Origin: Promethearchaeum syntrophicum
Lineage (GTDB): Archaea; Asgardarchaeota; Lokiarchaeia; Sigyniarchaeales; Promethearchaeaceae
DNA: 32,000 nt
Assembly (NCBI RefSeq): GCF_008000775.2
Contig: NZ_CP042905.2
Location: 4,200,001 to 4,232,000, forward strand
Direction of reading: 5' to 3'
A model generated the notes under the pieces. The model was not told where the DNA came from and did not search any database. It saw only the letters and a program-made list of their open reading frames with translations. A program made the translations under genes and the position numbers. Of the stretch, positions 4,782-28,203 are shown piece by piece (within the stretch, counting starts at the first letter, position 1; every line of letters begins with the position of its first letter).

Positions 4782-6800
4782 TCACTCCAAATACAAATTT
4801 TCGACAGTTTTTTCAATTAAATATAATAATTCATCAATATCTTTTTGATCTTCTTCATTTAGTGGATGGATTTGATTAGTTCTACGAATTCTATGCAAAA
4901 TTCGGCCAACCCCATCTAATTGTTGAATTATATGCTTATTTATCTTTAGTGGTAATTCATTTAAAGTATCAATTTCTACTTGGGGAAGAGTTCTATTCTT
5001 TTTTAACGTGATTAATTGATAGAAGCGATTAAAAATAATGGAATTTAAAATTGTACAAAGCGCATAAAGTGAGATAGGAGAATTAACATCTTTTCTAGGA
5101 ATTAAATAAAGCAAAGTATTTGAATGATAGAACCCATCTGTATCAACTGCAGCTATTAATCTATCTCCGGTTCTACGTAAGATAATCTTTTCTTGCTCAA
5201 TATGAGTAGGATTAAATCCACCCGAAAATAGCATATCGGGTTTAACCATTATAAAATGCCCCTGATAATGAATTAAATAAGGAACTATTGAATTTCCTGA
5301 AATCAAACCACGCTTCCAATAATGATTTTTTTTCATTCGAGATGTAATTCGTTCTTTGCCGATACCCGTCTTAGAACGTATTCCGTGATGTATTTCAAAG
5401 TAATTCTTAAGAGGAATTGTGTTTTTTTCAAATTTAGTGGTAAAATTTTCTGTATCTTTAGAGAAAAATAAGCGAAATCTCTTTTTCGGTTGGTTTTGAA
5501 AAAATTTAGGATTCATTTTATATTCTTGGAGTAAAAAAACTTCATTATTTCTGAAAATACACTTTATAGAACGCATTTCCACTTCTAATTGATTAGTATC
5601 TCCTGAAATTTTTTGTAAAATCAAAATTACCGGTAGCCCACTATTTGCTTGAGACCAAAAATTTTTTTCAAATAAGCAGATTTCAAGTAAAATACTTTTT
5701 GACAATAGGAAACTTCGCAGTTTTTGATAGTATTTCCCCATTAAAAAGCTATCTGGTAGAACAAAAGCGCCCCAACCACCAGGTTTAAGAAATTGAATTG
5801 CCCTTTCAATAAAAAGAGCGTAATAGCTGATTTTATATTCCGCAGTGGAAAATATTTTTCGATATTTGTCAGCATTATCATTTTTAAGTGTACCAACTCG
5901 CCCTAATCCCCAACTTTTATACGGGGGATTTGTAATAATTATATCTACTATTTCTTCATTGAAATTGGAGGGAATTTTAATATTGTTTTGAGAATTTTTC
6001 CTTAGGAGATCTTTCCATTGAATTTCTGTCAAAGATTCTAATGAGTCTGCATGAACAAAAGATATTTTCTGGAACATTTCACTAAATCCAGGGTGAAAAG
6101 TCAATAATTTTAGCAGATAATTACAGATTTTGATAATATATGGGTCATAATCAAAACCCCAAAAGGAAAAGTTTACATTCTTAAAATTTTGAAAAGAGAC
6201 AAATGCAGCCGCATAAATGAGGAAAGCACCCATTCCGCATGAATAATCTAAGATTCGAATATTGTCAGATCTAACCAATTTCATTAGAATATCGCTTTTT
6301 AACCTATTTAATATATATAAAATTACACTTGGTGGGGTATAATAGGACCCACTTGCTTTCCTGGTATTATCTTCTTCGTGATCGTCATTTAAGAAATGAA
6401 AATATTGAATTATATTGCTTAAAATTTGAATATCTGTTAATATTGGATCGTTAAGGAAGATATTTTCAGTAGAAAAAGGTGTTTCTTTTTCAAAGATCTC
6501 GCTTATTGTATTTTTAAATTCGTTTGATAACTTTTCATTTAGATTATTGATGAATTTAAAATCAAAATCGAATTGACCCTTATTTAGGTATATTTCCCAA
6601 AAAGCCCTCTTTAGCTCCCGTTTTATAGGTATTTCAAGTTTTTGCAACCAATTTCTGGTTTCGATAAATTCACTAACTATTAGATTAATTGAAATAAGAT
6701 TTACCGAGAGTTCTTCATTAGTAAATTCGATCTGAATATGATTATTAAGAATTTTCTTAATTGACAGGATTAATTTTTTAATTTTTCGAGTGGGGATCAT
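4782..6800 (-). CDS. gamma-class N6-adenine DNA methyltransferase, Eco57I-family catalytic domain with TaqI-like C-terminal specificity domain
   Basis: Motif X-like GSYYTPPSV, motif I ILDYSCGMGAFL, and motif IV IIITNPPYKSWG (NPPY encoded at 5919-5930, complement). The C-terminal segment HHGIRSKTG...GLISGNSIVPYLI...KIILRRTGDRLIAAVDTDGFYHSNTLLYLIP is typical of TaqI_C-type domains. The track ORF extends to 6989 but that extension overlaps the divergent gene. I place the start at Met64 (ATG 6800..6798, MIPTRKIKK); Met41 (6869) and Met37 (6881) are alternatives. Confidence 0.85.
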   Translation of the reverse strand: MIPTRKIKKLILSIKKILNNHIQIEFTNEELSVNLISINLIVSEFIETRNWLQKLEIPIKRELKRAFWEIYLNKGQFDFDFKFINNLNEKLSNEFKNTISEIFEKETPFSTENIFLNDPILTDIQILSNIIQYFHFLNDDHEEDNTRKASGSYYTPPSVILYILNRLKSDILMKLVRSDNIRILDYSCGMGAFLIYAAAFVSFQNFKNVNFSFWGFDYDPYIIKICNYLLKLLTFHPGFSEMFQKISFVHADSLESLTEIQWKDLLRKNSQNNIKIPSNFNEEIVDIIITNPPYKSWGLGRVGTLKNDNADKYRKIFSTAEYKISYYALFIERAIQFLKPGGWGAFVLPDSFLMGKYYQKLRSFLLSKSILLEICLFEKNFWSQANSGLPVILILQKISGDTNQLEVEMRSIKCIFRNNEVFLLQEYKMNPKFFQNQPKKRFRLFFSKDTENFTTKFEKNTIPLKNYFEIHHGIRSKTGIGKERITSRMKKNHYWKRGLISGNSIVPYLIHYQGHFIMVKPDMLFSGGFNPTHIEQEKIILRRTGDRLIAAVDTDGFYHSNTLLYLIPRKDVNSPISLYALCTILNSIIFNRFYQLITLKKNRTLPQVEIDTLNELPLKINKHIIQQLDGVGRILHRIRRTNQIHPLNEEDQKDIDELLYLIEKTVENLYLE

Positions 6801-6844
6801 TCTTAATATCAATTTTTTTGAAGGTTTATTTCTTGTAGAAAGGT
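6801..6844. promoter_or_regulatory. 44-bp head-to-head intergenic region shared by two divergent methyltransferase genes
   Basis: On the minus strand, gaaataaa lies about 25-32 nt upstream of ATG 6800, which is TATA-like spacing for a leaderless mRNA. On the plus strand an A/T run sits at the equivalent distance and aaaggt lies just before ATG 6845. Confidence 0.35.
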
Positions 6845-9073
6845 ATGGGTGATTCAAATTTTCTTTCATTTTCGTTCCCATTTCACACAAAAGAAAATAT
6901 TCCAGAGTTAAATTGGGTGAATCGTCCAATAAACAATTTCCAAGTCCCAAAAACAGATATAAAACCAGTGTTAGTAGTTGACTCAGCAAAAATTTTAACT
7001 AATCTTGGGAAGATCCAATTGAATTCAGCTAAAAATGATCAAAATATTAATTTTTACTCATCGTATGAAGAAGTGTTTAAAAAGGATAGAGAGGATAACA
7101 CGTTAAATCGAATAATCCATGCAGATTCTTTAATAGGGATGGCAAATTTAATAGAAAATGGATTTAGAGAAAAAACACAAATGATTTATTTCGATCCTCC
7201 TTTTGGAATCGAGTTTAATGCCAAATTTCACTCCGGAAATCAAAAAACAGAAGGATATATAGATTCATGGAAAAACGGATTAAATTCTTATTTAGAATAT
7301 TTACGTGAAAGAATTTTTTTATGCCGTGAGCTTCTCAATCCTTCCGGGTCCATTTTTATTCAAATTGGGGATGAAAATGTCCACTATGTGAGATGTTTAA
7401 TGGATGAAATCTTTGGTAGGAAGAATTTTGTGAGTCAAATTACGTTCAGAACCGCGATTAGCACAAATAAAATTAATAGCGTTTCAGATTATTTATTATG
7501 GTATGCGCGTGATAAATCCAAAATGTTTCGTCGTAAATTATATTGTGAACGATCGGAAGAAAAATCATCAAAAACATTTACTTACTCAGATACGAACCCT
7601 AAATCTGGAAAAATTAGAAAATTTAAAGCACAAGAATTAGTTAATCGAATAAAACCTACAAAATCTTTAAGAATTGATAGAAATTATTCTATTGATTTCA
7701 AAGGTAAGAAATTTTTACCTCCGGAGGGATTTGAATGGAGGTGGAATAAAGATGCATTACAAAGACTTATCGAGCTTAATAGGATACATGAAATTAATGG
7801 AAAATTATATGGTAAACGTTATGGAAAGGATTTTCCAGTTATGATCTTAACAAATCTTTGGACAGATACTTCTACAAGCACTTTTGCTTCGCGAAAGCAC
7901 TATACTGTACATACAAATCCTAAAGTTATTCGGAGGTGTATTGCAATGACTACAAAACCGGGTGATTTAGTCCTTGATCCTACCAGTGGCTCTGGCACTA
8001 CTGCAGTTGTGGCTGAAGATTTATTTAGAAAATGGATAGTATTTGATACAAGTCCAACATCAATACTATCTACTTTTAATTGGTTGATAGGAACAAACTT
8101 TCCAGAGTATCAATGGGATGATTCTATTAAAGATTTCATTTATACTCAAGTTAATAAGGTTAGTTTAAGCAATTTAGCCCATAAAAGGACGTCAAATCAA
8201 GAATTTCAATATGATCTACCGAAGAAGGAAAAAAAAAATCGGAATGCTATTAGGATTGCTTCTCCGTTTTCAATTGAAATGATAAAAAAATTAAAAATAT
8301 CTAAGTGGGCAGAATTTATTGTTAGTATTTTGAAAAATAATGGAATTTTATTACCATCTGGAAAAAAAATAGCCTTAGATAACATTCAATTCTTAGAAAT
8401 CCCAGGCAATAAAGATCAAAATAGGACCTTGTCCATTGTTCGTGGAACAATTAGGGAACTAATATATAATGTAATAATTAACGATCCAACAGCAGAAATT
8501 AGTGAATCAGATATATTGAAAGTCTTAGAAATTCCCGATGAACCAATTAGAAATCAAAACTGGATAATTTTAGGAGGAGTTTTTTCATTTAAATTCTATC
8601 GAAGAATCAAAGAAATTAGAGAACTTCTTGAAAAGTCAGAAACTACACTTCAAAAAGTTATTTTACTTGGAAATTATCACCCAGATTTACTAATAAAACA
8701 ACTAAGTTTTGATGCTCATCCTGAAAGTATTAGAATAATGGGCTCAATTATCCAGAAACCAAAAGATCTAAAATTCACTATTCAATTTTATAATCCATTT
8801 AGTAATATGTTTGAAAAACTACCTGATGATCAAATAGCTGTGTGGATGATTTGTAATTTAAAAAATGATGAAAAAAAACCCCCCAAAATTGATTTAATTC
8901 AATGCCCTATATATAAAAATTTCATCTCAAAAATAATTAAACCATATTTTTGTTCCACCATCGAATTAAACCAATATATAAAACAATACAAGAATCAAAT
9001 AGAAGAATCGAAAATCGGTTTAATTGGAATAGATCTTCGAGGCACACCACATTATGCAATTTTGGGTAGATAA
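6845..9073 (+). CDS. beta-class N4/N6 DNA methyltransferase (type III Mod-like motif order) with an uncharacterised C-terminal extension of about 330 aa
   Basis: Motif IV IYFDPPFG (DPPF at 7193-7204) precedes motif I LVLDPTSGSGTTAVVAE (7976-8002). This is the circular permutation of the N6_N4_Mtase family. A variable region of about 250 aa lies between the motifs (TRD position). No motif is recognisable in the last about 330 aa. Confidence 0.85.
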   Translation: MGDSNFLSFSFPFHTKENIPELNWVNRPINNFQVPKTDIKPVLVVDSAKILTNLGKIQLNSAKNDQNINFYSSYEEVFKKDREDNTLNRIIHADSLIGMANLIENGFREKTQMIYFDPPFGIEFNAKFHSGNQKTEGYIDSWKNGLNSYLEYLRERIFLCRELLNPSGSIFIQIGDENVHYVRCLMDEIFGRKNFVSQITFRTAISTNKINSVSDYLLWYARDKSKMFRRKLYCERSEEKSSKTFTYSDTNPKSGKIRKFKAQELVNRIKPTKSLRIDRNYSIDFKGKKFLPPEGFEWRWNKDALQRLIELNRIHEINGKLYGKRYGKDFPVMILTNLWTDTSTSTFASRKHYTVHTNPKVIRRCIAMTTKPGDLVLDPTSGSGTTAVVAEDLFRKWIVFDTSPTSILSTFNWLIGTNFPEYQWDDSIKDFIYTQVNKVSLSNLAHKRTSNQEFQYDLPKKEKKNRNAIRIASPFSIEMIKKLKISKWAEFIVSILKNNGILLPSGKKIALDNIQFLEIPGNKDQNRTLSIVRGTIRELIYNVIINDPTAEISESDILKVLEIPDEPIRNQNWIILGGVFSFKFYRRIKEIRELLEKSETTLQKVILLGNYHPDLLIKQLSFDAHPESIRIMGSIIQKPKDLKFTIQFYNPFSNMFEKLPDDQIAVWMICNLKNDEKKPPKIDLIQCPIYKNFISKIIKPYFCSTIELNQYIKQYKNQIEESKIGLIGIDLRGTPHYAILGR

Positions 9074-9237
9074 TTTAAATTTTAATATCAATTTCATATT
9101 GAAATAAATTTTTTATAAAAGAAATGAAATACGCCCTTCAAGCAAGATTTAGATTTCCTAGATTTTTGACCAGCAAATATATAAGCGAACCGATCAAATA
9201 GAAATATATAGTTTGCAAAAATAGCAAATTATTTTAA

Positions 9238-10458
9238 ATGGGTGAAAAATGTTTGAATATCAATATAATTAAAAAATTCAAGAATCGAGGAAAAAATTCA
9301 AGAGATCTCAAAAAGTTTGGTTTAATTTTGATCATTGGGCTCTTGATGCAAGTTATCTTTGTATCTAATATCGAACATTCAGTTGCTGTAGATGAAGGAA
9401 ATCCGGGATTGAGAACCGGGCAGAAAATGGTATATAATCCTGTGGCGGAGGAAATTATATTATTTGGGGGAAATCGCGGTAATGGAGACACTTCTTTATT
9501 GGATACGGTTTGGAAATACAATATTTCCCAATCAGAATGGGTAGAAATCAATCCGGGTCTATCACCAATATCCAGATATAATCATGCTATGGTTTATTTA
9601 CCTGGAAATAACAGTATTCTCCTTTTTGGAGGCAGAAAAAATTCCGATTATACACAATTGGATGATACATGGAAATATGATTTACGAACCAACACATGGG
9701 AGGAAATTATTTGCACTCCAAAACCTCCCGCTCGTCAATTTAGTTCCCTAACTTATGATTCCCAAAGTGAACGAGCATTATTATTTGGGGGGTTTGGACA
9801 AAATGAAGAACACCTCAATGATCTTTGGGAGTTTACTCCCGAAAATAATACTTGGACGGAAATAACAACTACTAATGCCCCCCAAAGCCGATATGGTCAT
9901 TCTCTTATCTATCGAAATGCTACGAACAATGCCTATCTGTTTGGAGGCCGTACTTTAGGACTAAATGATGATCTGTGGAAATTTGATCCTTCCATAAACG
10001 CTTGGAATTCCGTTGTAACCTCAACTAAACCTCTGCAACGTTATTTGCATTCTATGGAATATTGCTCAGAATCTGACTTGGGCTTTTTATTCGGGGGTGA
10101 TAATGAAAATACTCAAGGCCGAGCATTAGATGACACATGGGTATTTAATTTTACTGCCAATTCATGGATATTAATCCAACCCGAGACTTCCCCTGTTAGT
10201 CGGTTAATATATTCCATGTGTTATGATAGTGCTCTGAATCAGGTTTACATTTATGGAGGATTGACTGACGATTATCAAGTGTGCTTAGGTGATTTCTGGC
10301 AGTTTGATTTTACATCATCAAATTGGATTGAAATTGGAGATGGATCCAAAGGATCAATAGAAGGTTATCAAGGAATCGGGATTTCAATAATGAGCAGTAT
10401 TGCTGTCTGTACTCTAATAATAATAAGAAAAAAGCGTAGTACAGCCTTCAGAATCTAA
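9238..10458 (+). CDS. membrane-anchored six-bladed Kelch-repeat beta-propeller protein
   Basis: Six repeats of about 47 aa each contain hydrophobic-FGG...(D/L)xW(K/E/V/Q)(Y/F)..x..W, for example ILFGGNRG..DTVWKYNISQSEWVEI and ILLFGGRKN..DDTWKYDLRTNTWEEI. There is an N-terminal basic plus hydrophobic signal/anchor (KKFGLILIIGLLMQVIFV) and a C-terminal TM plus basic stop-transfer (ISIMSSIAVCTLIIIRKKRS). Confidence 0.85.
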   Translation: MGEKCLNINIIKKFKNRGKNSRDLKKFGLILIIGLLMQVIFVSNIEHSVAVDEGNPGLRTGQKMVYNPVAEEIILFGGNRGNGDTSLLDTVWKYNISQSEWVEINPGLSPISRYNHAMVYLPGNNSILLFGGRKNSDYTQLDDTWKYDLRTNTWEEIICTPKPPARQFSSLTYDSQSERALLFGGFGQNEEHLNDLWEFTPENNTWTEITTTNAPQSRYGHSLIYRNATNNAYLFGGRTLGLNDDLWKFDPSINAWNSVVTSTKPLQRYLHSMEYCSESDLGFLFGGDNENTQGRALDDTWVFNFTANSWILIQPETSPVSRLIYSMCYDSALNQVYIYGGLTDDYQVCLGDFWQFDFTSSNWIEIGDGSKGSIEGYQGIGISIMSSIAVCTLIIIRKKRSTAFRI

Positions 10459-10460
10459 TC

Positions 10461-10516
10461 AAAAAGATTTCATCTTTTTTCCACACTTATCACTTTTTTG
10501 GGGGCAATTTCCCCAA
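10461..10516. terminator. two hairpins between convergent genes (terminator region)
   Basis: aaaaagat ttc atcttttt (10461-10479, with T-run to 10480) and ttgggg gcaattt ccccaa (10498-10516, preceded by T6). Confidence 0.45.
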
Positions 10517-10553
10517 CCCAAATTAATTTTGGAATTATTTTTTAATTTGATTT

Positions 10554-10991
10554 CTATCGTGAATAAGAAGTTACTAATTTTTTCAATCTATAAATTTTAG
10601 AAGAACCACATTCTGGGCATTTTTTTTCCTTAGAATTATTAAAGCTTTGCCATTCTAAATCACAGTCCCAACAGCCCCAGCCTCCCCAATCTTTATAGGT
10701 GATATTTCCCGCCACAATTTCAAAATCTTTTTCCTCAACGATCGATCCTACCAATTTTTTGATTGCTGAAGATAAAATTCTTGAAAAAGTTGGTTGTGAA
10801 ATATTAAATTCTTTTGCACACTCTCCTTGGGATAAACCTTTATAGACGTTTAACCGAAGTGCTTCATATTCTTCTAAATTCACAATAACTGGTGCTGAAT
10901 CAGGAGTATCCTTAGAAATATTATTATATCTTAGCTTTATTTTACTTAAAGATTCTTTATCAACATATCTTTGAATTCTTCGTGGACTCAT
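10554..10991 (-). CDS. DUF134-family predicted DNA-binding protein (sigma-70 region-4-like HTH) with C-terminal zinc ribbon
   Basis: MSPRRIQRYV... N-terminus. The core VIVNLEEYEALRLNVYKGLSQGECAKEFNISQPTFSRILSSAIKKL matches the DUF134 pattern (..l..dE.EAlRL.d.egl.q.e.A..m.vSr.T..r.l..Ar.K.). The C-terminal CWDC...x19..CPEC is a Zn-ribbon. It is the last gene of the NifX/MinD operon. Confidence 0.8.
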   Translation of the reverse strand: MSPRRIQRYVDKESLSKIKLRYNNISKDTPDSAPVIVNLEEYEALRLNVYKGLSQGECAKEFNISQPTFSRILSSAIKKLVGSIVEEKDFEIVAGNITYKDWGGWGCWDCDLEWQSFNNSKEKKCPECGSSKIYRLKKLVTSYSR

Positions 10992-11064
10992 ATAATTACA
11001 CCTTTTTTTGAGATAGAAGAAAAAATTAAAATTATCGCAAATTCAAATTGAATACCGACGTTTT

Positions 11065-11433
11065 TTAATGTTGACAAGTTGCTTGTGATAATTTTTTTAA
11101 TAGATTTTGTTTAAAGGCTTCAAAGTTTTGTTTTATGGTTCCTTGAATCCCACGATAAGGCTCAATTCCGACTTGTATAAACCCCATCAATGGACGCTGG
11201 CCAATGCCGCCAACTACCACTTCCGAAACACCATTATTTTTCAAAAGCATAACAGGTGTCATACACCCACCTTGCTCATGAGGGGAATTTTGAATTACTT
11301 CAACAGTTATTACAGCTTTGGTATTTTCATCGTATTCAATTGTGAGAAATGTGGGTGTATGGCCGAAATGCCCGACTAATTCACCATTCAGTCCTTCGAC
11401 TGTTCCAGGAAAAGCAATTTTTTTGGTACTCAT
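11065..11433 (-). CDS. NifX/NifB-like protein (dinitrogenase iron-molybdenum cofactor biosynthesis domain family), paralog 1
   Basis: KIAFPGT...LVGHFGHTPTFLTIEYD...VEVIQN...VSEVVVGGIGQRPLMGFIQVGIEPY is the characteristic pattern of the Nitro_FeMo-Co domain. The start is probably MSTKK (11433); the track start at 11442 adds MIK. Confidence 0.8.
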   Translation of the reverse strand: MSTKKIAFPGTVEGLNGELVGHFGHTPTFLTIEYDENTKAVITVEVIQNSPHEQGGCMTPVMLLKNNGVSEVVVGGIGQRPLMGFIQVGIEPYRGIQGTIKQNFEAFKQNLLKKLSQATCQH

Positions 11434-11529
11434 TTTTATCATTTTCTTGTTTATATATCATTTTAAATGATTAGAGATTCATAAAATTTCTTCTCTGGTC
11501 TTTTTTAGAATAATTATTCATAAAAAGGA

Positions 11530-11940
11530 TCAATTATGGTGATGATGATGGTGATCATGACCAAATTGACCAGCATCTTCTTTTGGGATCCCATAATCTT
11601 TCCCTCCACCAGGATTGCATAAACTTTCCCCGCCTCTTAAGGTCCCATTTAAAATCTCTTTGATGCAATTATCTATCGTTCCGACAATACCAACAATCGG
11701 TTCAATGTTAAATTGATTAAAGAGATCTACGGCGCGTCTACCCATACCTCCAGAAATAATTACATTGACATTTTGTTCATGTAAATATTTTGGAATATAT
11801 CCGGTACTATGACCCGGATTTGGTATTTCTTGTTTGTTACTTATTTTCTCACCATCTAATTCAAAAATGGTATAATTAGGACATCTCCCAAAATGTTGGG
11901 CTACCATTCCACTATCTGTGGCAATTGCAATTTTTTTCAT
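11530..11940 (-). CDS. NifX/NifB-like protein, paralog 2, with C-terminal His-rich tail
   Basis: KIAIATDSGMVAQHFGRCPNYTIFEL...NVNVIISGGMGRRAVDLFNQFNIEPIVG. The C-terminus is ...GHDHHHHHHN (11533-11559). The start is probably MKKIAIA (11940); the track start is at 11952. Confidence 0.8.
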   Translation of the reverse strand: MKKIAIATDSGMVAQHFGRCPNYTIFELDGEKISNKQEIPNPGHSTGYIPKYLHEQNVNVIISGGMGRRAVDLFNQFNIEPIVGIVGTIDNCIKEILNGTLRGGESLCNPGGGKDYGIPKEDAGQFGHDHHHHHHN

Positions 11941-11988
11941 TTTTACTAACACCTTTTTCTTTTTTTTATTTTTTATTTCTTCGTTTTT

Positions 11989-12909: not shown

Positions 12910-12912
12910 TAT

Positions 12913-13845: not shown

Positions 13846-13886
13846 ACTTTTTCCTTTCTGAGTGGTTAATTTTGAATTGTAATATT

Positions 13887-14366: not shown

Positions 14367-14605
14367 ATTTTTTCACTTATTTTTTTATGAATAGGTATTC
14401 AAATAATAAATAGAATTACTAAATTAAAAACTTTCTTAAGATTTTTTTTTATTCATCATAAAATGGTTTTGAAATATGATTTTATTTATTTTTTATTTAA
14501 ATGAAAGAAAAAAAATCCCAAAATTCTTAAAGTATTATCCTAAAAATGTACCCAATCGAAGATGTGTCATTTGATATATCTTTGATTAAAATTGAGGTTT
14601 TTTAA

Positions 14606-16635: not shown

Positions 16636-16650
16636 ATTAGTTGACAGATT

Positions 16651-20627: not shown

Positions 20628-20664
20628 AACTATAGAAATTGAAAAAAAAATTCCAAAAATCCTT

Positions 20665-22792: not shown

Positions 22793-23107
22793 TTAGAGAT
22801 TTAAACGATTTTTTATTGTATTTTTCCACTGGATAACTAAAAGTTCTCCAGATTTTGTGTTATATCTATCTGTAGTAAAAGAAACTTCTTCAACATTACC
22901 GAAATCTTGTTCAACAAGCTTTAAGCATGCATCAATGTTTTTAATTTGGGAACCAATTCCGTGCTTGTGCTGGATAAAAACAGTGGAGGATTTTTCGTTT
23001 TGGCGAATAAAACTGTCTACTTTCTCTTCAAAATTTAGAATATTTGATGGTTTCTTCTCACTTAATACTAATGTATGAAGATTTGCATTATTTTTATTAG
23101 GATTCAC
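22793..23107 (-). CDS. small hypothetical protein with weak Smr (small MutS-related nicking endonuclease)-like motif pattern
   Basis: 104 aa. NLHTLVLSE (cf. Smr DLHGLtveE), about 35 aa, then VFIQHKHGIGS (cf. viIHGKGthS), then IKNIDACLKLVEQ..VEEVSF and SGELLVIQW (cf. Lk.aV..wL....V..f / G.GaT.V.L). It is co-directional with, and 125 bp downstream of, the 23233..25602 methyltransferase. The TATA-like ttttaaata sits about 25 nt upstream of its ATG. The shadow ORF 22857..23078 (+) was rejected. Confidence 0.3.
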   Translation of the reverse strand: MNPNKNNANLHTLVLSEKKPSNILNFEEKVDSFIRQNEKSSTVFIQHKHGIGSQIKNIDACLKLVEQDFGNVEEVSFTTDRYNTKSGELLVIQWKNTIKNRLNL

Positions 23108-23232
23108 TTACAAGTAGACCTCTTCTATTTAAAATAGTAATCGAATGGTATGCATTTAAGTGTTATGCTTATAGGATTATTAAATATTCTGCAAATTGGA
23201 ATAATGATTAGAAATTTCAGATTTTTCATGTG

Positions 23233-25602
23233 TTAATTTTCCAAGTTTATATCATTTAATGATATTTTAAATAGTTTAGCTATATTTTGATTGATTTTAC
23301 TTATATTCTCCTTTCTATCTGAATTTTGTTTTGATTCTATTTCATTATCTTGATTGATTTGCTCGACATAATTACAGATTTCTCTATACAATTGATAACT
23401 TCGCGATTTTTTATTCAGAAAATCAATTTTAGGGATGGGAAGTGCTAAAATATTTGCTTGAATTAAATGAGGAAATGTTTTTTTGTTCGGATTGGCAAAA
23501 CTATGAAGATAATAATACTCAATTACTTTGGATGATATAATTCCGAATAAAAACTCGAGTGAATATTGCGATAATATTGTTGTATTATAGTCAAGTCCTA
23601 TATCCTCGTCAGATTTTGAAATTGAATTAAGAATTTTTGATGCTTGATTTGGATCCTTAATAAAAGCAGATAATCCGTACGATTTCTGAGTCTTGTTTGC
23701 TTCAACAATTTTTGCTGATTTAATATCAGGTTTTATATGGGGTAATAATCCAATATCTTGAGAATTATCATATTTAAGTGAGAACTGATATACGACTTGT
23801 ACTGTATAACGTTTTTTATAATCAAGGGCAGAAATAATCCCATTTCCAGTTTTTCTAATGAGAATTTTAGGGATATTGTATTTCTCTGGCGATTTATATT
23901 TAATTCCGTTGTAATTTAAATGGATTTTGAATCGATTTTGGAGATTAAAACGTTGGACATCTTCACCTACTAAAATCGGAACCCATCCTTTTTCATGTCC
24001 TTTTTCAAATGAATCTAATGGTAAGATAATTCTATCATAGTTAGATATTTGAGACTTTTCAATATATTTTTTGCAATAAGGACAATTTGTCATTAATAAT
24101 GATGGATTTTGAGGATTTTTTTTAAAATGTGGGATAGGATTCCATTTCTTACAAGCGGGACATTGATATATTTCGCCATTTTTCCCTATTTCTACTCCAC
24201 GACTGTTGTTAACAAAATCTCCAAACACATAGTGTTCTGTTGATTCAATTTTTTTAAGTATTTCAGCATTTGAATGCCGTGTAAAAATAATGAAATTATA
24301 AAATGGGTGATCTAAGAAACTTTTTTGTGGAATAGTATGAATTTTCCATAAATCCATATGAAACATTTCCAATTTTTTCCGATTCACATAGTATTCTTCA
24401 TTTAACAATAATATTTTAACTAAATGCTTTTTGGAAGGAGATTTTTTTTGAAGGAAAAGAATACATGAAGGAATTTTTACATTTGGAAAAATTTTTTCAC
24501 CTAAATAATTTATCTGAAGAATAGAAGTATTTTTAATAAGATAATATCTAAGTGGAGCGTATACAGGATTAAATAAAATTGTACTTGGGACTATTAAAGC
24601 AATAATTCCTTCAATTTGAATAATTTCTAAATTTTTGATTATAAAAAGGGCGTAAATATCAATTTGATCTTTAATTTTATATGGACGATTATAGGGAGAT
24701 TTCGGGCTTAAACCTCCGGTATAAGTTTTTGAGTCATGAGAGGACTGTAGAAGTACTTTGAATTTAGTTTGCATTAATTTTTGATAAGGTTTGACATCGG
24801 TACCCCAAGGAGGATTCCCAATAAGAATATCAAAAGGAGATTCAGGGAAAAAATGTTTCAAACTATCTCTTTTTTTAAAGCTTGGATTTACTCTTTGATT
24901 CATTGAAAAAATAGAAAAATTAATTTCAGCAATTTCCAGGGCTAAGGGATCCGAGTCAAATGCAAAAATTTCTGAGTTAGAAAAATATTCAGGTATAAAT
25001 TGAATAAAATTTCCGGCACCACATGCGATATCAGCTATCTTGATATGTATTTCTTGTTCTTCTTCAATTTCTTCTTTCATTTTCTCTTTATTTATTGTTT
25101 CTATTTGATGATATTTTAACCAATAGGACTTTGAGGTTGAAATAATCTCTTTAACAAGCCAGCTTGGAGTAAAAAAAGTCCCTTTTCGATGTTTAATTCG
25201 ATTTTTTCTATAAGATATGGAATTAGCAGAAGGTAAATGTAGTATTTCATAAAAATTTGGTAGAAATAAAGAATCATGGATAAAAGGATAGATTGATTCA
25301 AGCATAAATCCAAAATTTGCTATTGTTAGGTAATTCTCTGAGATCGATTTTGAAATTAATGGAAAATCTTTTGGGGTGATGTTCAATTTTTGAATTGAAG
25401 AAATAAAGATTTGTGAGAGTTTTGATCCATCAATTGATGTATTTTCATCTTCAACGTTCAATTTAATAAAAAATTCTTCTTTTGAGAACTTTTGGAGGCA
25501 AATAAAGATTTTTAACCCTAAACGAAAAATATCACGCTTTTGATCTTCATTCAAATTATTACCATAGAATTTGATGAATTTCTTTATGAAATCTTTACTC
25601 AC
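23233..25602 (-). CDS. gamma-class N6-adenine DNA methyltransferase, Eco57I-family with TaqI-like C-terminal domain carrying a zinc-ribbon insertion
   Basis: GTG start at 25602; there is no in-frame ATG before residue about 100. Motif X GTFFTPSWLV, motif I IADIACGAGNFI, and motif IV ILIGNPPWG (NPPW at 24805-24816, complement). The Zn ribbon is CPACKKW..x19..CPYCKKY. The TaqI_C-like segment is VPILVGEDVQRFNL...PKILIRKTGNGIISALDYKKRY. Confidence 0.85.
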   Translation of the reverse strand: MSKDFIKKFIKFYGNNLNEDQKRDIFRLGLKIFICLQKFSKEEFFIKLNVEDENTSIDGSKLSQIFISSIQKLNITPKDFPLISKSISENYLTIANFGFMLESIYPFIHDSLFLPNFYEILHLPSANSISYRKNRIKHRKGTFFTPSWLVKEIISTSKSYWLKYHQIETINKEKMKEEIEEEQEIHIKIADIACGAGNFIQFIPEYFSNSEIFAFDSDPLALEIAEINFSIFSMNQRVNPSFKKRDSLKHFFPESPFDILIGNPPWGTDVKPYQKLMQTKFKVLLQSSHDSKTYTGGLSPKSPYNRPYKIKDQIDIYALFIIKNLEIIQIEGIIALIVPSTILFNPVYAPLRYYLIKNTSILQINYLGEKIFPNVKIPSCILFLQKKSPSKKHLVKILLLNEEYYVNRKKLEMFHMDLWKIHTIPQKSFLDHPFYNFIIFTRHSNAEILKKIESTEHYVFGDFVNNSRGVEIGKNGEIYQCPACKKWNPIPHFKKNPQNPSLLMTNCPYCKKYIEKSQISNYDRIILPLDSFEKGHEKGWVPILVGEDVQRFNLQNRFKIHLNYNGIKYKSPEKYNIPKILIRKTGNGIISALDYKKRYTVQVVYQFSLKYDNSQDIGLLPHIKPDIKSAKIVEANKTQKSYGLSAFIKDPNQASKILNSISKSDEDIGLDYNTTILSQYSLEFLFGIISSKVIEYYYLHSFANPNKKTFPHLIQANILALPIPKIDFLNKKSRSYQLYREICNYVEQINQDNEIESKQNSDRKENISKINQNIAKLFKISLNDINLEN

Positions 25603-25635
25603 ATTTAAATTCTCGAAGATTTTAAATATAAATTA
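25603..25635. promoter_or_regulatory. 33-bp head-to-head intergenic region with two oppositely placed TATA-like boxes
   Basis: The sequence is atttaaattctcgaagattttaaatataaatta. tttaaa (25604-25609) is about 27-32 nt upstream of ATG 25636. On the other strand tttatatttaaaa (25620-25632) is about 18-30 nt upstream of GTG 25602. The spacing fits leaderless archaeal promoters firing in both directions. Confidence 0.4.
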
Positions 25636-28203
25636 ATGCAATACGGGGTTAATTTTTTTCAGAAATTAGTAGAAATTTGTAATGAATTAAGGACTGAATT
25701 GATTAAAATCCCCAAGGAACTGTTACAAGTAAAGATATTAGAAATTATCCCATTTCAAGACACAAAAGGACTGGAATGCGATGAATTTATAGAAATTTGC
25801 TGTCAAAATGTATGTTTATTAACAGTTTACAAAAAAATTTTTCCAGATTTAAATTTATCTGTCTCTAAAAGATTTTTAGAGCAATTTTGGAGCAAATTAT
25901 TTGCCAATAAAGAAAAAAAAGTTAATTTTTTTATCAAAAAATTAAATGTATTGCCGATTGAGAAAGTAAAAATCGATTTAACTCGATATGATTCAATATC
26001 CCAATTTATTCAAACTGTATATACTCAATTTATTAAAGAATATAACCCAAATCTTCAAAAAAAGCGAGGAATCACCTATACACCCCGTTTTATTATCCGA
26101 ACTATGATAGAATCGATTGATTCTATATTACAAAGTAATTTTAATGACTCTCTAGGAATTGCATCTAAAGATCTTATTTTATATGATCCTGCAACGGGTT
26201 CGTTATCATTTGAGATTGGGTTGATTTCATATGTATATGATCAAATTCGAACCAAAAATAAAGAAAAAGATATTAAATTTGAAGATTGGGTCTTTCAAAG
26301 TTTTAACAATTCATTCTTAGGTAATGAACTAAATCCACCGGCATATTTTCTTGGAAAATTCTTACTTTTTGACATTTTACACCAATTAAATAATTTATCT
26401 CAAAATTTGGGTAAAAATTTCAATGTATTTTTTAAATCTGCTCTTTCTCCAGACATATTAGAAGAATTTAAACATAAAAACCAAAAAACAAACAAACCAT
26501 TAGTTATTTTCGGTAATCCTCCCTATTCAGTTTCTAGTTCTAACAGAAATTCATGGATATATAAATTAATGAAAGAATATTCTGTTAAAGAACCTAATTT
26601 AACGCGCTTATATGATGACTACGTTAAGTTTTTGCGGTTAGGTCAATGGTTATTGGATCAGCAAAAAAGTGGGATACTGGCATTTATAACAAACAGGAAA
26701 TACTTAGATGGAAAAATTTTCTATGGAATGCGGCAATCAATGCTAAAATCGTTTGATACAATTCATATCATTGATCTTTTTGGAGATATACGGAATATAA
26801 AGGATTATGGCACGAAAACAAATACAAATATCTTTAATATTCAAACTGGAGTTTGTATTGGATTCTTTATTAAAAATATTGAGAAAAATGAAAGAGAGAT
26901 AAACAAAATAGCGCGAATTTTCTATATGGGGGTTAAAGGTTCAATTGACCAAATAAAAACACAATTGGTTAAACCATTTGAACAGCTTCCATTCATAGAA
27001 TTATCTCCGCATTCTCCAAAATTCTATTTTGTGCCAATCGAATTAGAAAATGATTTGACTGAAATTTGGAATAACCAATGCATTCCAATCACCGATTGTT
27101 TTCAAAAAACAAGCCGGGCAATGATAAGTTCGCGTGATAGATTTATGATTAATGTGGATAAAAAGCCGTTAGAGGAGAATATTGCTTTATTAAAAAACAA
27201 GGAATTTGCCACGTTAAGATTTAATGAAAGAATTGGGCAGAAATTTGATGAAATCTTGGAAAATGAAGATATTTTAGCATCTTTTAATTTTAATGAAATG
27301 GAATCTTCGATAATCCAGATAAATTATAGACCATTTGATATACGTCATGGGATATTTTATACAATTAATCGAAAATGTGGAAAATCCATTATATTGGATT
27401 ATTTAAATAAACCAAACCCAAATTTTAATTCACAAGATGTAATAAATAAGAATAATATTAGTTATAATAATTCTGGTTATGCATTTAATTTCGTTCAATC
27501 AATCCAACATCCCCCATTCAACCATTTTTTGTTCACTAAAGGAGTTGTCGATTCAGGATTATTTGGTTATTCAACTTCCAAAGTCGCACCCTTGTGGATT
27601 GATGGAAAATCAAATATTACTCCAAAATTTACTGACATTATTAAAGATATCATTCCTCAAACCGATCCTATTCAAATTTCTGGATATATCTATGCTATTT
27701 TAAACTGTGACCAATTTACAAAGATATTTGAACCTATTTTAATCCATGAATTCCCAAGAATATTAATCCCTTATAACTCAATATTTTTTGAAAGAATGTC
27801 TGTTTTGGGAAAAAAATTAATGCATCTTCATGTATTTGAATTCGATTCTATACAATGGGAGAAATACCGAATTTTCTATGAACAAATATCTTTCCTCCCA
27901 AAATCATTTCAATTGAAATCATGGAAATTTGAACCTGATAGGGATGAATTACATATAATTTCTGTAAAAAAAAAAGACTCATTGAAATTCCCTTGTTCTA
28001 ACCTAGAATGGAATTATAAAATTGGAAGCATAAAATTATTGGATCATTGGTTGAAAGCTCGAAAATTTAAGAAATTAGGAAGATCATTAAAACCAGATGA
28101 GTTGAGTAGATTGATAACTCTATTATTTGTGATTAAAGAATCTCTGCACATTAAAAAACAAATTGCTCAATTTTTCTCTAAAAATTGGAAGCATTTTAAT
28201 TGA
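25636..28203 (+). CDS. gamma-class N6-adenine DNA methyltransferase of the type ISP-like MTase+TRD architecture (no nuclease or helicase domains)
   Basis: Motif X RGITYTPRFII, motif I LYDPATGSLSF (second Gly replaced by Leu), and motif IV VIFGNPPYSVSS (NPPY at 26515-26526). It continues LYDDYVKFLRLGQW...GILAFITNRKYLDG..FYGMRQSML..FDTIHIIDLFGD, then YRPFDIRHGIFY and near the C-terminus IGSIKLLDHWLKARKF..LGRSLKPDEL. As I recall them, these strings are typical of the MTase and C-terminal specificity domains of LlaGI-type (type ISP) enzymes. Confidence 0.8.
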   Translation: MQYGVNFFQKLVEICNELRTELIKIPKELLQVKILEIIPFQDTKGLECDEFIEICCQNVCLLTVYKKIFPDLNLSVSKRFLEQFWSKLFANKEKKVNFFIKKLNVLPIEKVKIDLTRYDSISQFIQTVYTQFIKEYNPNLQKKRGITYTPRFIIRTMIESIDSILQSNFNDSLGIASKDLILYDPATGSLSFEIGLISYVYDQIRTKNKEKDIKFEDWVFQSFNNSFLGNELNPPAYFLGKFLLFDILHQLNNLSQNLGKNFNVFFKSALSPDILEEFKHKNQKTNKPLVIFGNPPYSVSSSNRNSWIYKLMKEYSVKEPNLTRLYDDYVKFLRLGQWLLDQQKSGILAFITNRKYLDGKIFYGMRQSMLKSFDTIHIIDLFGDIRNIKDYGTKTNTNIFNIQTGVCIGFFIKNIEKNEREINKIARIFYMGVKGSIDQIKTQLVKPFEQLPFIELSPHSPKFYFVPIELENDLTEIWNNQCIPITDCFQKTSRAMISSRDRFMINVDKKPLEENIALLKNKEFATLRFNERIGQKFDEILENEDILASFNFNEMESSIIQINYRPFDIRHGIFYTINRKCGKSIILDYLNKPNPNFNSQDVINKNNISYNNSGYAFNFVQSIQHPPFNHFLFTKGVVDSGLFGYSTSKVAPLWIDGKSNITPKFTDIIKDIIPQTDPIQISGYIYAILNCDQFTKIFEPILIHEFPRILIPYNSIFFERMSVLGKKLMHLHVFEFDSIQWEKYRIFYEQISFLPKSFQLKSWKFEPDRDELHIISVKKKDSLKFPCSNLEWNYKIGSIKLLDHWLKARKFKKLGRSLKPDELSRLITLLFVIKESLHIKKQIAQFFSKNWKHFN

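What the first reader, a model, noticed from the sequence alone, without database searches (positions are those of the whole stretch)
4782..28203. Recurring architecture: two head-to-head DNA methyltransferase pairs (four large MTases) with no recognisable restriction partner
Four ORFs of 672-855 aa carry clear amino-MTase catalytic motifs: NPPY at 5919-5930 (complement), DPPF at 7193-7204, NPPW at 24805-24816 (complement), and NPPY at 26515-26526. They form two divergent pairs about 16 kb apart. In each pair a minus-strand Eco57I/TaqI_C-type gamma-class enzyme starts only 44 bp (6801-6844) or 33 bp (25603-25635) from the start of a plus-strand MTase of a different type. One partner is beta-class and Mod-like; the other is type ISP-like. 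I recognise no PD-(D/E)xK, HNH or PLD nuclease, SF2 helicase/Res, HsdR or HsdS signature in any ORF of the window. Two hemi-methylases for an asymmetric type IIS/IIG site, or orphan regulatory MTases, are the conservative explanations. However, the same back-to-back layout recurs with non-homologous partners, and the shared promoter regions are extremely compact. Together these suggest a co-regulated two-MTase module. It could be an epigenetic system or an R-M-like defence system whose effector is unrecognised.
Basis: partly seen in the sequence, partly recalled or inferred. Interest (0 to 1): 0.7.

Follow-up and report, generated by a model that had tools for sequence, protein, structure and literature searches.

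The report
Nuclease-less DNA methyltransferase pairs in Lokiarchaea
Four large DNA methyltransferases in the Asgard archaeon Promethearchaeum syntrophicum look like restriction-enzyme relics that lost their DNA-cutting parts and were kept as inherited chromosomal DNA-marking genes, while their head-to-head pairing is real but optional.

Summary
The window (Promethearchaeum syntrophicum MK-D1) holds four amino-MTases in two divergent pairs with 44-bp and 33-bp gaps. No nuclease turned up. Profile libraries give only MTase and specificity domains. AlphaFold models show M2 is Mod-like and M4 has an all-helical N-terminus. The unassigned regions have essentially no invariant catalytic-type residues. 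M3 and M4 are about 215 and 180 residues shorter at the N-terminus than their nearest relatives, which are type IIG/IIL-like. A bacterial relative of M2 sits in an operon with a Res helicase; M2 has none.

M2, M3 and M4 form Promethearchaeota-restricted clades. All four have orthologs at the same chromosomal positions in other genera at 41–47% identity, beside housekeeping genes at 47–67%. Catalytic motifs are invariant, and recognition domains are as conserved as catalytic cores.

Pairing is not obligatory. M1 accompanies M2 in 5 of 9 loci, apparently a single later gain. M3 accompanies M4 in 5 of 7 loci, apparently ancestral and lost twice.

Best reading: persistent orphan MTases domesticated from type III, type IIL/ISP and type IIG systems. 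An obligate two-MTase module or a cryptic defence system is not supported. No Lokiarchaeial methylome was found in the searched papers, so specificities and function remain untested.

The parts
4782..6800 (-). M1: 672-aa gamma-class amino-MTase (N6_Mtase/Eco57I core, NPPY at aa 291, TaqI_C recognition domain). It is the facultative partner of M2.
   Evidence: Pfam. Start at ATG 6800 supported by orthologs. NPPY is invariant in 5 orthologs. The N-terminal 145 aa has no Pfam hit and no invariant acidic residue. Present next to M2 in 5 of 9 distinct loci.
6801..6844 (.). 44-bp, 77% A+T divergent control region between M1 and M2.
   Evidence: The gap is 44 bp in a second Promethearchaeum species, and about 85, 73 and 60 bp in other M1-bearing loci. 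No promoter element conserved across genera was identified.
6845..9073 (+). M2: 742-aa beta-class, type III Mod-like MTase (DPPF at aa 117, DPTSGSG at aa 378). It is the persistent core gene of pair 1.
   Evidence: Pfam N6_N4_Mtase at aa 112-404. PADLOC MTase_III at 2e-67. AF2 model pLDDT 82, pTM 0.85. Best fold matches are the EcoP15I, H. pylori and Mbo45V Mod subunits. Found in the same syntenic position in all 9 distinct loci.
8126..9070 (+). C-terminal domain of M2 (aa 428-742): a lineage-specific, fast-evolving alpha/beta domain of unknown function.
   Evidence: No Pfam or PDB-sequence match even with a profile. Only 15 hits among 1.84 billion representative proteins: 12 M2-family members and 3 short unexamined proteins of 198-279 aa. 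About 25% identity between genera against 59-71% for the MTase core, and no invariant D/E/K/H. Still detectable in Harpocratesius (hhalign 98%) but absent from the Hodarchaeales relative.
4261..4764 (+). 167-aa coiled-coil, Cys-rich, C-terminally membrane-anchored protein. It is the most constant neighbour of M2. A functional link is untested.
   Evidence: Adjacent to M2 in 9 of 9 distinct loci at 51-84% identity. It lies directly upstream on the same strand wherever M1 is absent. No Pfam, NCBIfam or PADLOC hit.
23233..25602 (-). M3: 789-aa gamma-class amino-MTase (NPPW at aa 263, TaqI_C recognition domain). It is a nuclease-less relative of type IIG enzymes and the facultative partner of M4.
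   Evidence: Pfam. M3 aa 136 aligns to aa 351 of its nearest non-Loki relative P0233, which carries a faint precomputed HSDR_N hit. NPPW is invariant in 13 orthologs and there is no invariant D/E/K/H in aa 1-135. Present next to M4 in 5 of 7 distinct loci.
24076..24165 (-). Zinc-ribbon insertion in the M3 recognition region (C480, C483, C506, C509).
   Evidence: All four cysteines are invariant in 13 orthologs. Weak Zn_ribbon_3 match, E=1e-4. The segment is an insertion relative to P0233.
25603..25635 (.). 33-bp, 88% A+T divergent control region between M3 and M4.
   Evidence: The gap is 32-33 bp in a related Promethearchaeum contig and in L. ossiferum, and 78 and 137 bp in two other lineages.
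25604..25616 (+). TTTAAATTCTCGA: conserved TATA-box-like promoter element of M4, starting 32 nt upstream of its ATG and 1 nt from the M3 start codon.
   Evidence: TTTAWATTCTYGA lies about 28-32 nt upstream of the M4-ortholog ATG in 6 of 7 loci, including L101, which has no M3. Its promoter role and leaderless transcription are inferred from archaeal promoter geometry and are not shown.
25636..28203 (+). M4: 855-aa gamma-class MTase with a type ISP/IIL-type recognition domain (NPPY at aa 294). It is the persistent core gene of pair 2.
   Evidence: Pfam Type_ISP_C at aa 488-817. Aligns to DrdV only from DrdV residue 275. AF2 model pLDDT 82. Best fold matches are DrdV (TM 0.64), LlaBIII and the LlaGI nuclease-deletion mutant.
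25636..26145 (+). N-terminal region of M4 (aa 1-170): an all-helical bundle occupying the place of the nuclease plus linker of type IIL/ISP relatives.
   Evidence: DSSP on the model shows nine helices and no strand before aa 181. No Pfam hit. No invariant column in aa 1-120 among 21 orthologs. Most bacterial relatives with a complete N-terminus have about 270-340 residues before the equivalent point and total about 975-1,120 aa.

Best explanation
The four genes encode active but nuclease-less DNA amino-methyltransferases, probably N6-adenine. They are persistent orphan MTases of the family Promethearchaeaceae, derived from three different kinds of restriction-modification enzyme by loss of the cutting or translocating component.

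- M2 works like a type III Mod subunit without Res and has gained a lineage-specific C-terminal domain.
- M4 works like the methyltransferase plus recognition half of a type IIL/ISP enzyme. Its N-terminal nuclease has been replaced by a helical bundle.
- M1 and M3 work like TaqI/Eco57I-type gamma MTases. M3 has an added zinc ribbon.

Each enzyme marks chromosomal DNA at its own fixed recognition sequence for a host function such as gene regulation, replication or repair timing, or self-marking. They do not restrict DNA. M2 and M4 are the long-lived core genes, embedded in conserved chromosomal synteny. The divergent gamma-class partner is an accessory: M1 was added once beside M2, and M3 was ancestral beside M4 and lost twice.

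Where the partner is present, the two genes are transcribed from back-to-back promoters. In the 33-bp version each gene's TATA-like element lies against the other's start codon, so their initiation complexes must overlap and their expression is coupled.

Shown: domain content, absence of nuclease features, orthology, synteny, conservation pattern, pairing frequencies and the conserved M4 promoter element. Inferred: catalytic activity, adenine target, leaderless transcription, promoter coupling and the host function.
For: No nuclease:
- Only MTase and recognition domains appear in Pfam, NCBIfam and PADLOC.
- The unassigned termini give no hits even at E<=5.
- M4 aa 1-170 is all helix. The M2 and M4 models match Mod subunits and DrdV/LlaBIII/LlaGI-deltaN.
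- The unassigned regions have no invariant D/E/K/H apart from K82 in M1.
- Neighbours give no nuclease or defence hits.
- The published REBASE-based survey lists no type I, II, III or IV REase gene in this genome; its four type IIG entries are nominally bifunctional.

Derived from R-M enzymes:
- Most bacterial M4 relatives with a complete N-terminus are about 975-1,120 aa, with about 270-340 residues ahead of the point that aligns to M4 aa 105-129.
- M3 aa 136 equals aa 351 of P0233, a type IIG-like protein with a faint HSDR_N hit on an integrase and primase element.
- The bacterial M2 relative P0113 lies in a Mod...ResIII operon.

Persistence:
- The M2, M3 and M4 families are Promethearchaeota-restricted clades with large score gaps to outsiders.
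- Orthologs occupy the same positions beside the DUF134/Nitro_FeMo-Co/MinD cluster or the MutL-ubiquitin and radical SAM genes.
- MTase identity between MK-D1 and L. ossiferum is 41-47%, against 47-67% for syntenic neighbours.
- Three genera of one family are covered.
- There is no integrase, tRNA, flanking repeat or viral relative.

Active and fixed specificity: DPPF, NPPY and NPPW are invariant, and recognition regions are as conserved as catalytic cores.

Facultative pairing: 5 of 9 and 5 of 7 loci, with the gain and loss pattern seen in the trees.

Promoter: the element is conserved in 6 of 7 loci.
Against: - No methylome or biochemical data exist for any of these proteins in the searchable literature. 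Activity, target base, motifs and function are all inferred.
- M1 and M3 were not modelled structurally, because only two prediction jobs were allowed. For their N-termini, absence of a nuclease rests on profile searches and residue conservation.
- The fold of M2's 315-aa C-terminal domain could not be searched on its own, so a very divergent or novel effector fold is not formally excluded.
- A head-to-head layout retained in 5 of 7 and 5 of 9 loci, while the flanks change, hints at some selective advantage of pairing. A purely 'independent enzymes' reading does not explain that.
- The trees are neighbour-joining without support values.
- A trans-encoded, unrecognised nuclease elsewhere in the genome cannot be excluded from a 32-kb window.
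Confidence: 0.65

Rival explanations
1. Strand-complementary two-MTase module. In each pair, the plus-strand enzyme comes from a family that methylates only one strand of an asymmetric site (type III Mod, type IIL/ISP). It marks one strand and the divergent TaqI_C-type partner marks the other. After replication both daughter duplexes therefore keep a mark, and the shared promoter keeps the two activities balanced. Pair 2 would be an Eco57I-style 'type IIG enzyme plus companion MTase' system that lost its nuclease.
For: - Type IIG enzymes modify one strand, and classical ones such as Eco57I need a second MTase for the complementary strand. Type IIS systems need two MTases (PMC2582602).
- M4 is structurally a DrdV/ISP-type module and M2 a Mod-type module.
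- The M3/M4 pair is ancestral and is kept head-to-head while its flanks change.
- The gaps of 33 and 44 bp are far tighter than other divergent gaps in the window.
- The same layout arose twice with different core enzymes.
- None of 79 bacterial M4 relatives has such a companion, so the pairing is a lineage-specific acquisition.
Against: - M2 persists without M1 in 4 of 9 loci and M4 without M3 in 2 of 7, with intact catalytic motifs, so the core enzymes function alone.
- M1 appears to be a later insertion between two older neighbours.
- Without a nuclease there is no known need for second-strand protection.
- No evidence exists on recognition sequences, so 'same site, opposite strands' is untested.
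Confidence: 0.2
2. Cryptic defence system. The pairs are the modification half of an R-M-like or BREX/MADS-like system whose effector is unrecognised. The effector could be the novel C-terminal domain of M2, the 167-aa membrane protein, or a gene encoded elsewhere.
For: - M2's C-terminal domain has no homolog anywhere outside this family. It keeps a small H612/D614/H625/E627 cluster in most members.
- The 167-aa gene accompanies M2 in 9 of 9 loci.
- M1 and M3 give weak hits to the MADS mad2 and BREX PglX models.
Against: - The H/D/H/E cluster is not kept. E627 is A or S in P0011 and P0013, and the motif is degenerate in Harpocratesius. The domain has no invariant D/E/K/H and evolves at about 25% identity between genera.
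- The mad2 and PglX scores (34-58 bits) are far below the family cut-offs of 500-900 bits, and no other BREX or MADS gene is nearby.
- No third gene is conserved with pair 2.
- The conservation is vertical and syntenic, with conserved recognition domains. That is the reverse of the patchy, fast-diversifying pattern of defence systems (the 'persistent MTase' concept in PMC10609329).
Confidence: 0.05
3. Insertion hotspot. The adjacency has no functional meaning. New MTase genes simply tend to land and survive next to existing ones, and the compact gaps reflect general genome compaction.
For: - M1 looks like an insertion between the 167-aa gene and M2.
- L101 carries two further MTase genes, Dam-like and Eco57I-type, 4-7 kb from its M4 ortholog.
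- A relative carries homologs of M2, M3 and M4 on contigs of identical length (29,811 bp), probably the same contig.
Against: - Both partners sit in the same precise head-to-head position, with their start codons 33-44 bp apart.
- M1 and M2 diverged in parallel in place (45-48% against 47-49%), and M3 and M4 likewise.
- Other divergent gaps in the window are 5-25 times larger.
Confidence: 0.1

Closest known systems
Persistent (vertically inherited) orphan DNA MTases, such as Dam, CcrM and the archaeal persistent groups HG1-HG4 of Anton et al. 2023 (PMC10609329)
   Same: No cognate nuclease. Conserved across a taxon at a fixed chromosomal position. Catalytic motifs and recognition regions are under purifying selection.
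   Different: Most known archaeal persistent MTases are small type II enzymes with 4-5-bp sites, nearly all palindromic. These proteins are 672-855 aa and of type III Mod, type IIL/ISP and type IIG descent, families that typically read asymmetric sites. Here they also occur as head-to-head pairs. Persistence is shown only within one family (three genera), and the function is unknown.
Type III R-M Mod subunit (EcoP15I Mod, PDB 4zcf; Mbo45V Mod, 7dsu)
   Same: Beta-class motif order and DPPF. These are the best sequence and fold matches for M2. A bacterial relative is encoded with a Res helicase.
   Different: No Res gene was found in any of the Lokiarchaeial loci whose gene calls were examined. 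M2 has a 315-aa C-terminal domain found nowhere else.
Type IIL and type ISP R-M enzymes (DrdV 7lo5, MmeI 5hr4, LlaBIII 4xqk, LlaGI 5ffj)
   Same: M4 shares the helical linker, gamma MTase and Type_ISP_C recognition-domain module (TM 0.6-0.65).
   Different: M4 lacks the N-terminal nuclease of DrdV and MmeI, and the nuclease plus helicase-like ATPase of the ISP enzymes. It aligns to DrdV only from residue 275, and aa 1-170 are all helical.
Eco57I-type type IIG system (bifunctional enzyme plus separate companion MTase) and type IIS two-MTase systems
   Same: The gene content of pair 2 resembles it: an IIG/IIL-like protein next to an Eco57I/TaqI_C-type gamma MTase. Such systems use two MTases because the site is asymmetric (PMC2582602).
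   Different: Neither protein carries a nuclease and no separate REase gene is present. The companion is dispensable in 2 of 7 lineages.
BREX PglX and MADS Mad2 methyltransferases
   Same: These are nuclease-less gamma MTases with related cores. There are weak profile hits for M1 and M3 and a distant fold hit for M4.
   Different: Scores are far below the family cut-offs. No PglZ, BrxC or BrxL gene and no other mad gene is nearby.

Membership tests
Type III restriction-modification system | Beta-class Mod methyltransferase with a central recognition region | tested here: met
   M2: N6_N4_Mtase, DPPF before DPTSGSG. PADLOC MTase_III at 2e-67. The fold matches EcoP15I and Mbo45V Mod.
Type III restriction-modification system | Adjacent Res subunit (SF2 helicase plus nuclease) | tested here: not met
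   No ResIII, helicase or nuclease gene appears in the window or in the gene calls of the orthologous loci examined. The bacterial relative P0113 does have one. The survey lists 0 type III Res genes in the genome.
Type IIG / IIL bifunctional R-M enzyme (MmeI, DrdV, Eco57I) | Gamma-class N6A MTase fused to a C-terminal recognition domain | tested here: met
   M1 and M3 have Eco57I + TaqI_C. M4 has Eco57I + Type_ISP_C. The M4 fold matches DrdV.
Type IIG / IIL bifunctional R-M enzyme (MmeI, DrdV, Eco57I) | N-terminal PD-(D/E)xK-type endonuclease domain in the same polypeptide | tested here: not met
   M4 aa 1-170 is all helical and about 180 aa shorter than most of its bacterial relatives. M3 is about 215 aa shorter than P0233. 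The N-termini of M1, M3 and M4 give no Pfam hit and have no invariant acidic residue. M1 and M3 were not modelled.
Type ISP R-M enzyme (LlaGI, LlaBIII) | Mrr-like nuclease plus helicase-like ATPase upstream of the MTase and recognition module | tested here: not met
   M4 aligns only to LlaBIII residues 767-1169 and LlaGI residues 603-989. No ATPase domain is found in Pfam.
Type IIS system with two MTases | Two adjacent MTases plus a separate REase gene | tested here: not met
   Two MTases are adjacent, but no candidate REase exists. Neighbours are membrane proteins, a DUF3795 protein, a radical SAM enzyme and housekeeping genes.
BREX | PglX reaching the family threshold, together with PglZ, BrxC and BrxL genes | tested here: not met
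   PglX models score 14-39 bits against cut-offs of 500-900 bits. No PglZ, BrxC or BrxL hit appears among the window ORFs scanned.
MADS (methylation-associated defence system) | Mad2 MTase at threshold plus the other mad genes | tested here: not met
   NF047738 scores 46-53 bits against a cut-off of 720 bits. No other mad hits appear among the neighbours.
Persistent orphan DNA methyltransferase | No cognate restriction endonuclease | tested here: met
   See the nuclease tests above. The survey lists no type I, II, III or IV REase gene in the whole genome; it does list four nominally bifunctional type IIG genes.
Persistent orphan DNA methyltransferase | Vertical conservation across a taxon rather than a patchy distribution | tested here: met
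   Orthologs are in synteny in Promethearchaeum, Lokiarchaeum, Harpocratesius and unnamed Promethearchaeota MAGs. Their divergence parallels that of housekeeping neighbours. This holds for M2 and M4. M1 and M3 are present in only 5 of 9 and 5 of 7 loci. The depth demonstrated is one family.
Persistent orphan DNA methyltransferase | Conserved recognition specificity and demonstrated genomic methylation | not testable with these tools
   Recognition regions are as conserved as catalytic cores, which is indirect support. No methylome data were found.

The most novel reading that the evidence does not exclude
The two pairs are a lineage-specific epigenetic device of the Lokiarchaeial relatives of eukaryotes. 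A hemimethylating core enzyme (M2, M4) and its divergently transcribed gamma-class partner would together write a strand-resolved mark at asymmetric sites. The mutually occluding 33-44-bp promoters would set their ratio. The mark would be read by host machinery, for example for strand or age discrimination in replication or MutL-dependent mismatch repair. M4 orthologs lie two or three genes downstream of MutL in three lineages. M2's orphan C-terminal domain would act as the adaptor to that machinery.
Probability: 0.12. Interest if true: 0.7.

Novelty: new member of a known kind. Interest (0 to 1): 0.4.

Why it matters
[quoted passage not shown] The one published survey had a single Lokiarchaeial genome and no methylome, so it could not ask which MTases are persistent.

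This analysis picks out four of that genome's 17 MTase genes as inherited, nuclease-free and specificity-conserved. That makes them the best candidates for a housekeeping epigenetic function in the two cultured genera, Promethearchaeum and Lokiarchaeum.

It also gives three clean examples of R-M enzymes (type III, type IIL/ISP, type IIG) domesticated by loss of the nuclease or Res component. In addition it defines a new 315-aa domain fused to a Mod-like enzyme.

If the pairs turned out to write both strands of asymmetric sites, that would be a new way of building a heritable mark. As it stands, the finding is a solid and well-delimited lead rather than a new kind of system.

Tried and rejected
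- I considered the conserved H612-P-D614...H625-P-E627 cluster in M2's C-terminal domain as a possible PD-(D/E)xK site. I rejected it because E627 is A or S in some orthologs, the motif is degenerate in Harpocratesius and no D/E/K/H is invariant.
- The genome-collection scan for M2 used narrow peptide patterns and returned only 7 loci. The taxonomic breadth is therefore a lower bound.
- The metagenome scan for M4 returned 79 bacterial type IIG relatives and one archaeal contig. It was useless for counting archaeal pairs but useful as an outgroup.
- Viral-contig scans for M1 and M3 found nothing close.
- Rfam, tRNA and repeat scans of the window found nothing relevant.
- The literature searches found no Lokiarchaeial methylome or earlier description of these pairs.
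- The sigma-70 promoter scanner was not used because it does not apply to archaea.
- No promoter element conserved across genera was found upstream of M2.


Full report
SOURCE AND OBSERVATION. The window comes from Promethearchaeum syntrophicum MK-D1. M2, M3 and M4 are 100% identical to NCBI proteins of that organism on a 4.32-Mb contig (Logan sample DRR199588). G+C is 26-35%. The four catalytic tetrapeptides translate exactly as claimed, the start codons give gaps of 44 and 33 bp, and the proteins are 672, 742, 789 and 855 aa. Pfam confirms N6_Mtase/Eco57I/TaqI_C for M1 and M3, N6_N4_Mtase for M2, and N6_Mtase/Eco57I/Type_ISP_C for M4. Motif order makes M1 and M3 gamma class and M2 beta class. 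M4 also fits gamma class if the invariant D184-P185-A186-x-G188 of its alignment is motif I; one search's own pattern found no motif I in M4. The clustering is not chance. A REBASE-based survey counts 17 MTase genes in this genome, about one per 250 kb, and four of them lie within 23 kb. The other three divergent gaps in the window are 239-914 bp.

IS A NUCLEASE HIDDEN ANYWHERE?
(i) Pfam, NCBIfam and PADLOC give only MTase and recognition-domain hits for the four proteins. The unassigned N-termini give nothing even at E<=5.
(ii) An AlphaFold2 model of M4 (pLDDT 82) has nine helices and no strand in aa 1-170, which excludes a PD-(D/E)xK, PLD or GIY-YIG core there. Its best fold matches are DrdV, LlaBIII and a nuclease-deletion mutant of LlaGI, and it aligns to DrdV only from residue 275.
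(iii) Among 70 bacterial relatives of M4 with a complete N-terminus, most are about 975-1,120 aa and have about 270-340 residues before the point that aligns to M4 residue 105-129. M4 is therefore about 180 residues short, roughly the size of a nuclease domain.
(iv) M3 residue 136 aligns to residue 351 of its nearest non-Loki relative P0233. That protein is type IIG-like with a faint precomputed HSDR_N hit, and it lies on an element with an integrase and a D5-type primase.
(v) The M2 model (pLDDT 82, pTM 0.85) matches type III Mod subunits, and no nuclease appears in the top 50.
(vi) Across ortholog alignments, the N-terminal regions of M2, M3 and M4 and the C-terminal domain of M2 have no invariant D, E, K or H. 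M1's N-terminus has only K82.
(vii) None of the neighbouring ORFs gives a significant nuclease or defence hit.
(viii) The survey lists no type I, II, III or IV restriction gene in the whole genome. Its four type IIG entries are nominally bifunctional, and the tests above show that M3 and M4 lack the nuclease domain.
One caveat remains. M1 and M3 were not modelled, and M2's C-terminal domain could not be fold-searched separately.

THE M2 C-TERMINAL DOMAIN. Residues 428-742 form a confidently predicted alpha/beta domain. It has no Pfam or PDB-sequence relative even with a profile. An exhaustive search of 1.84 billion representative proteins found only 15 hits: 12 members of the M2 family and 3 short unexamined proteins of 198-279 aa. 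The domain evolves at about 25% identity between genera, against 59-71% for the MTase core. A small H612/D614/H625/E627 cluster looked at first like a degenerate PD-(D/E)xK motif, but it is not kept across the family. The domain is still recognisable in Harpocratesius (hhalign 98%) and absent from the Hodarchaeales relative. I regard it as a lineage-specific non-catalytic domain, possibly for dimerisation, DNA contact or partner binding. That role is an inference.

DISTRIBUTION AND INHERITANCE. The M2, M3 and M4 families are each a Promethearchaeota-restricted clade, followed by a large drop in score to bacterial type III Mod-like or type IIG proteins. M1's outside relatives were not searched. 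Orthologs sit in conserved synteny. M2 lies between a 167-aa membrane-protein gene and the DUF134/Nitro_FeMo-Co/MinD-ferredoxin cluster in nine distinct loci. M4 lies near the MutL-ubiquitin genes and/or a radical SAM gene in most loci. Between MK-D1 and Lokiarchaeum ossiferum the MTases are 41-47% identical and their syntenic neighbours 47-67%, which fits descent in place. There is no integrase, tRNA gene, flanking repeat or close viral relative. NCBI places the three named genera in one family, Promethearchaeaceae, so persistence is demonstrated at family level. The catalytic tetrapeptides are invariant in all orthologs. The recognition regions are as conserved as the catalytic cores: M4 42 vs 44%, M3 47 vs 44%, M2 59 vs 61-71%, M1 51 vs 51%. 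That is the signature of a fixed recognition sequence, not of a diversifying defence gene. It matches the concept of 'persistent' MTases described for other archaea (PMC10609329).

IS THE PAIRING A MODULE? Both pairs recur. M1/M2 occurs in the window, two other Promethearchaeum species, L. ossiferum and a JGI contig. M3/M4 occurs in the window, a related contig, L. ossiferum, an SRR22273277 contig and a Harpocratesius species. Neither pairing is obligatory, however. Four of nine M2 loci have no M1. In those, the 167-aa gene sits 56-201 bp upstream of M2 on the same strand with no M1 remnant. Two of seven M4 loci have no M3 and no remnant. In neighbour-joining trees rooted with outside relatives, the M1-bearing M2 sequences form one clade nested among M1-less lineages, which suggests a single gain of M1. 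The M3-less M4 sequences are scattered among M3-bearing ones, which suggests M3 was ancestral and lost twice (no support values). M1 and M3 are distant homologs of the same architecture (24% identity in the core; hhalign 99.9%). M3 alone has a zinc ribbon with four invariant cysteines. None of the 79 bacterial M4 relatives has such a companion. The same layout therefore arose by two different routes, with M2 and M4 as durable cores and the gamma-class gene as an accessory.

CONTROL REGIONS. Upstream of M4, the element TTTAWATTCTYGA lies about 28-32 nt from the ATG in six of seven loci. It is present where the gap has grown to 78 or 137 bp and in L101, which has no M3. Its position fits an archaeal TATA box for a leaderless or near-leaderless transcript. 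That conclusion is inferred from general archaeal promoter geometry and has not been shown. In the 33-bp versions the element starts one base from the M3 start codon. A second A+T-rich, TATA-like stretch (25621-25633) lies against the M4 start codon in the position expected for M3's promoter. Two initiation complexes on such a region would overlap, so expression of the pair is probably coupled or mutually exclusive (inference). No comparable conserved element was found for M2.

MECHANISM AND RIVALS. I commit to the following, at about 0.65. These are persistent orphan amino-MTases, domesticated from type III, type IIL/ISP and type IIG systems by loss of Res or the nuclease. Each writes a fixed mark for a host function, and the divergent partner is optional.

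The main rival, at about 0.2 and stronger for pair 2, is a strand-complementary module. Type III Mod and type IIG/IIL enzymes methylate one strand of asymmetric sites, and Eco57I-type systems use a second MTase for the other strand (PMC2582602). The partner could therefore complete the mark. The weakness of this rival is that the cores persist without their partners and that no recognition data exist.

A cryptic defence system (about 0.05) is disfavoured by the synteny, the conserved recognition domains and the absence of any conserved third gene. The BREX and MADS profile scores are also far below threshold. A pure insertion-hotspot explanation (about 0.1) does not account for the precise head-to-head geometry or the parallel divergence in place.

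NOVELTY AND SCORE. Orphan and persistent MTases are well known. REBASE already lists these genes, and nuclease-less IIL-like MTases exist, for example PglX. I did not find four features reported before: their family-level persistence in Lokiarchaea, their derivation from three R-M types, the new C-terminal domain on the Mod-like enzyme, and the facultative head-to-head partners with an interleaved promoter. This is a new member of a known kind with some variant features. It is a useful and directly testable lead for Asgard epigenetics, but not a new kind of system. Interest is 0.4.

Noticed in passing
window 4261-4764 (+): This 167-aa protein has an N-terminal coiled coil, a Cys-rich middle and C-terminal transmembrane helices. 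It has no Pfam, NCBIfam or PADLOC hit. It is more conserved than the MTases (51-84% identity) and lies next to M2 in 9 of 9 loci. Where M1 is absent it sits directly upstream of M2 on the same strand. It could be a functional partner of M2 or just a syntenic neighbour.
   Followed up: partly
L008 3062-5630; L009 2805-5379; L101 4447-6923; window about 18508-18759: A MutL mismatch-repair gene followed by an 83-85-aa ubiquitin gene lies immediately beside the M3/M4 locus in three lineages. In L101, which has no M3, a flavodoxin gene lies between ubiquitin and M4. In the window a ubiquitin gene lies 4.5 kb from M3, but MutL is absent. This is probably ancestral synteny. A methylation-mismatch repair link is pure speculation.
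   Followed up: partly
window 28583-29659 (-) and 28236-28586 (+): A glycyl-radical-activase-like radical SAM gene recurs just downstream of M4 in the window, L008, L101 and L102 at 54-56% identity. A DUF3795 gene follows M4 in the window and in L. ossiferum. No known link to DNA modification was found; the NCBIfam hits are weak.
   Followed up: partly
window 9238-10458, 14606-15490, about 18508-18759, 19307-20272: The stretch between and around the two MTase pairs holds several eukaryote-like genes: a six-bladed Kelch-repeat protein, a caspase-domain (Peptidase_C14) protein, a ubiquitin and a RIO-type protein kinase.
   Followed up: no
L101 419-3752: A Dam-like MethyltransfD12 gene and an 816-aa Eco57I/M_Eco57I_C MTase lie 4-7 kb from the M4 ortholog in a lineage that lacks M3. 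This suggests the neighbourhood accumulates MTase genes.
   Followed up: no
L097 10929-17782: In the bacterial type III-like operon of the M2 relative P0113, two copies of an AAA_15/DUF3696 ATPase gene plus a small 172-173-aa gene are inserted between Mod and the 1,002-aa ResIII gene.
   Followed up: no
L098 374-14918: The nearest non-Loki relative of M3, a type IIG-like protein with a faint HSDR_N hit, sits on an apparent integrated element. The element carries a D5-type primase, a GIY-YIG protein and a phage-type integrase.
   Followed up: no
window 13884-13959: A 12-nt tandem repeat of about 6 copies (ACCTCTACCTTG-like) lies in the 3' coding part of the minus-strand Nitro_FeMo-Co-domain gene (13887-14366). 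It would encode a short repetitive C-terminal tail.
   Followed up: no
window 4000-9000 and 23000-28000 versus 9000-18000: G+C is slightly lower over the MTase genes (27-30%) than over the housekeeping block between them (31-34.5%). This could be a faint trace of foreign origin or of different codon constraint.
   Followed up: no
proteins P0166, P0174, P0185, P0189: Further nuclease-less-sized (768-800 aa) Type_ISP_C proteins from L. ossiferum and other Promethearchaeota are only about 27% identical to M4. Loss of the nuclease from ISP/IIL-like enzymes may therefore have happened more than once in this phylum.
   Followed up: no
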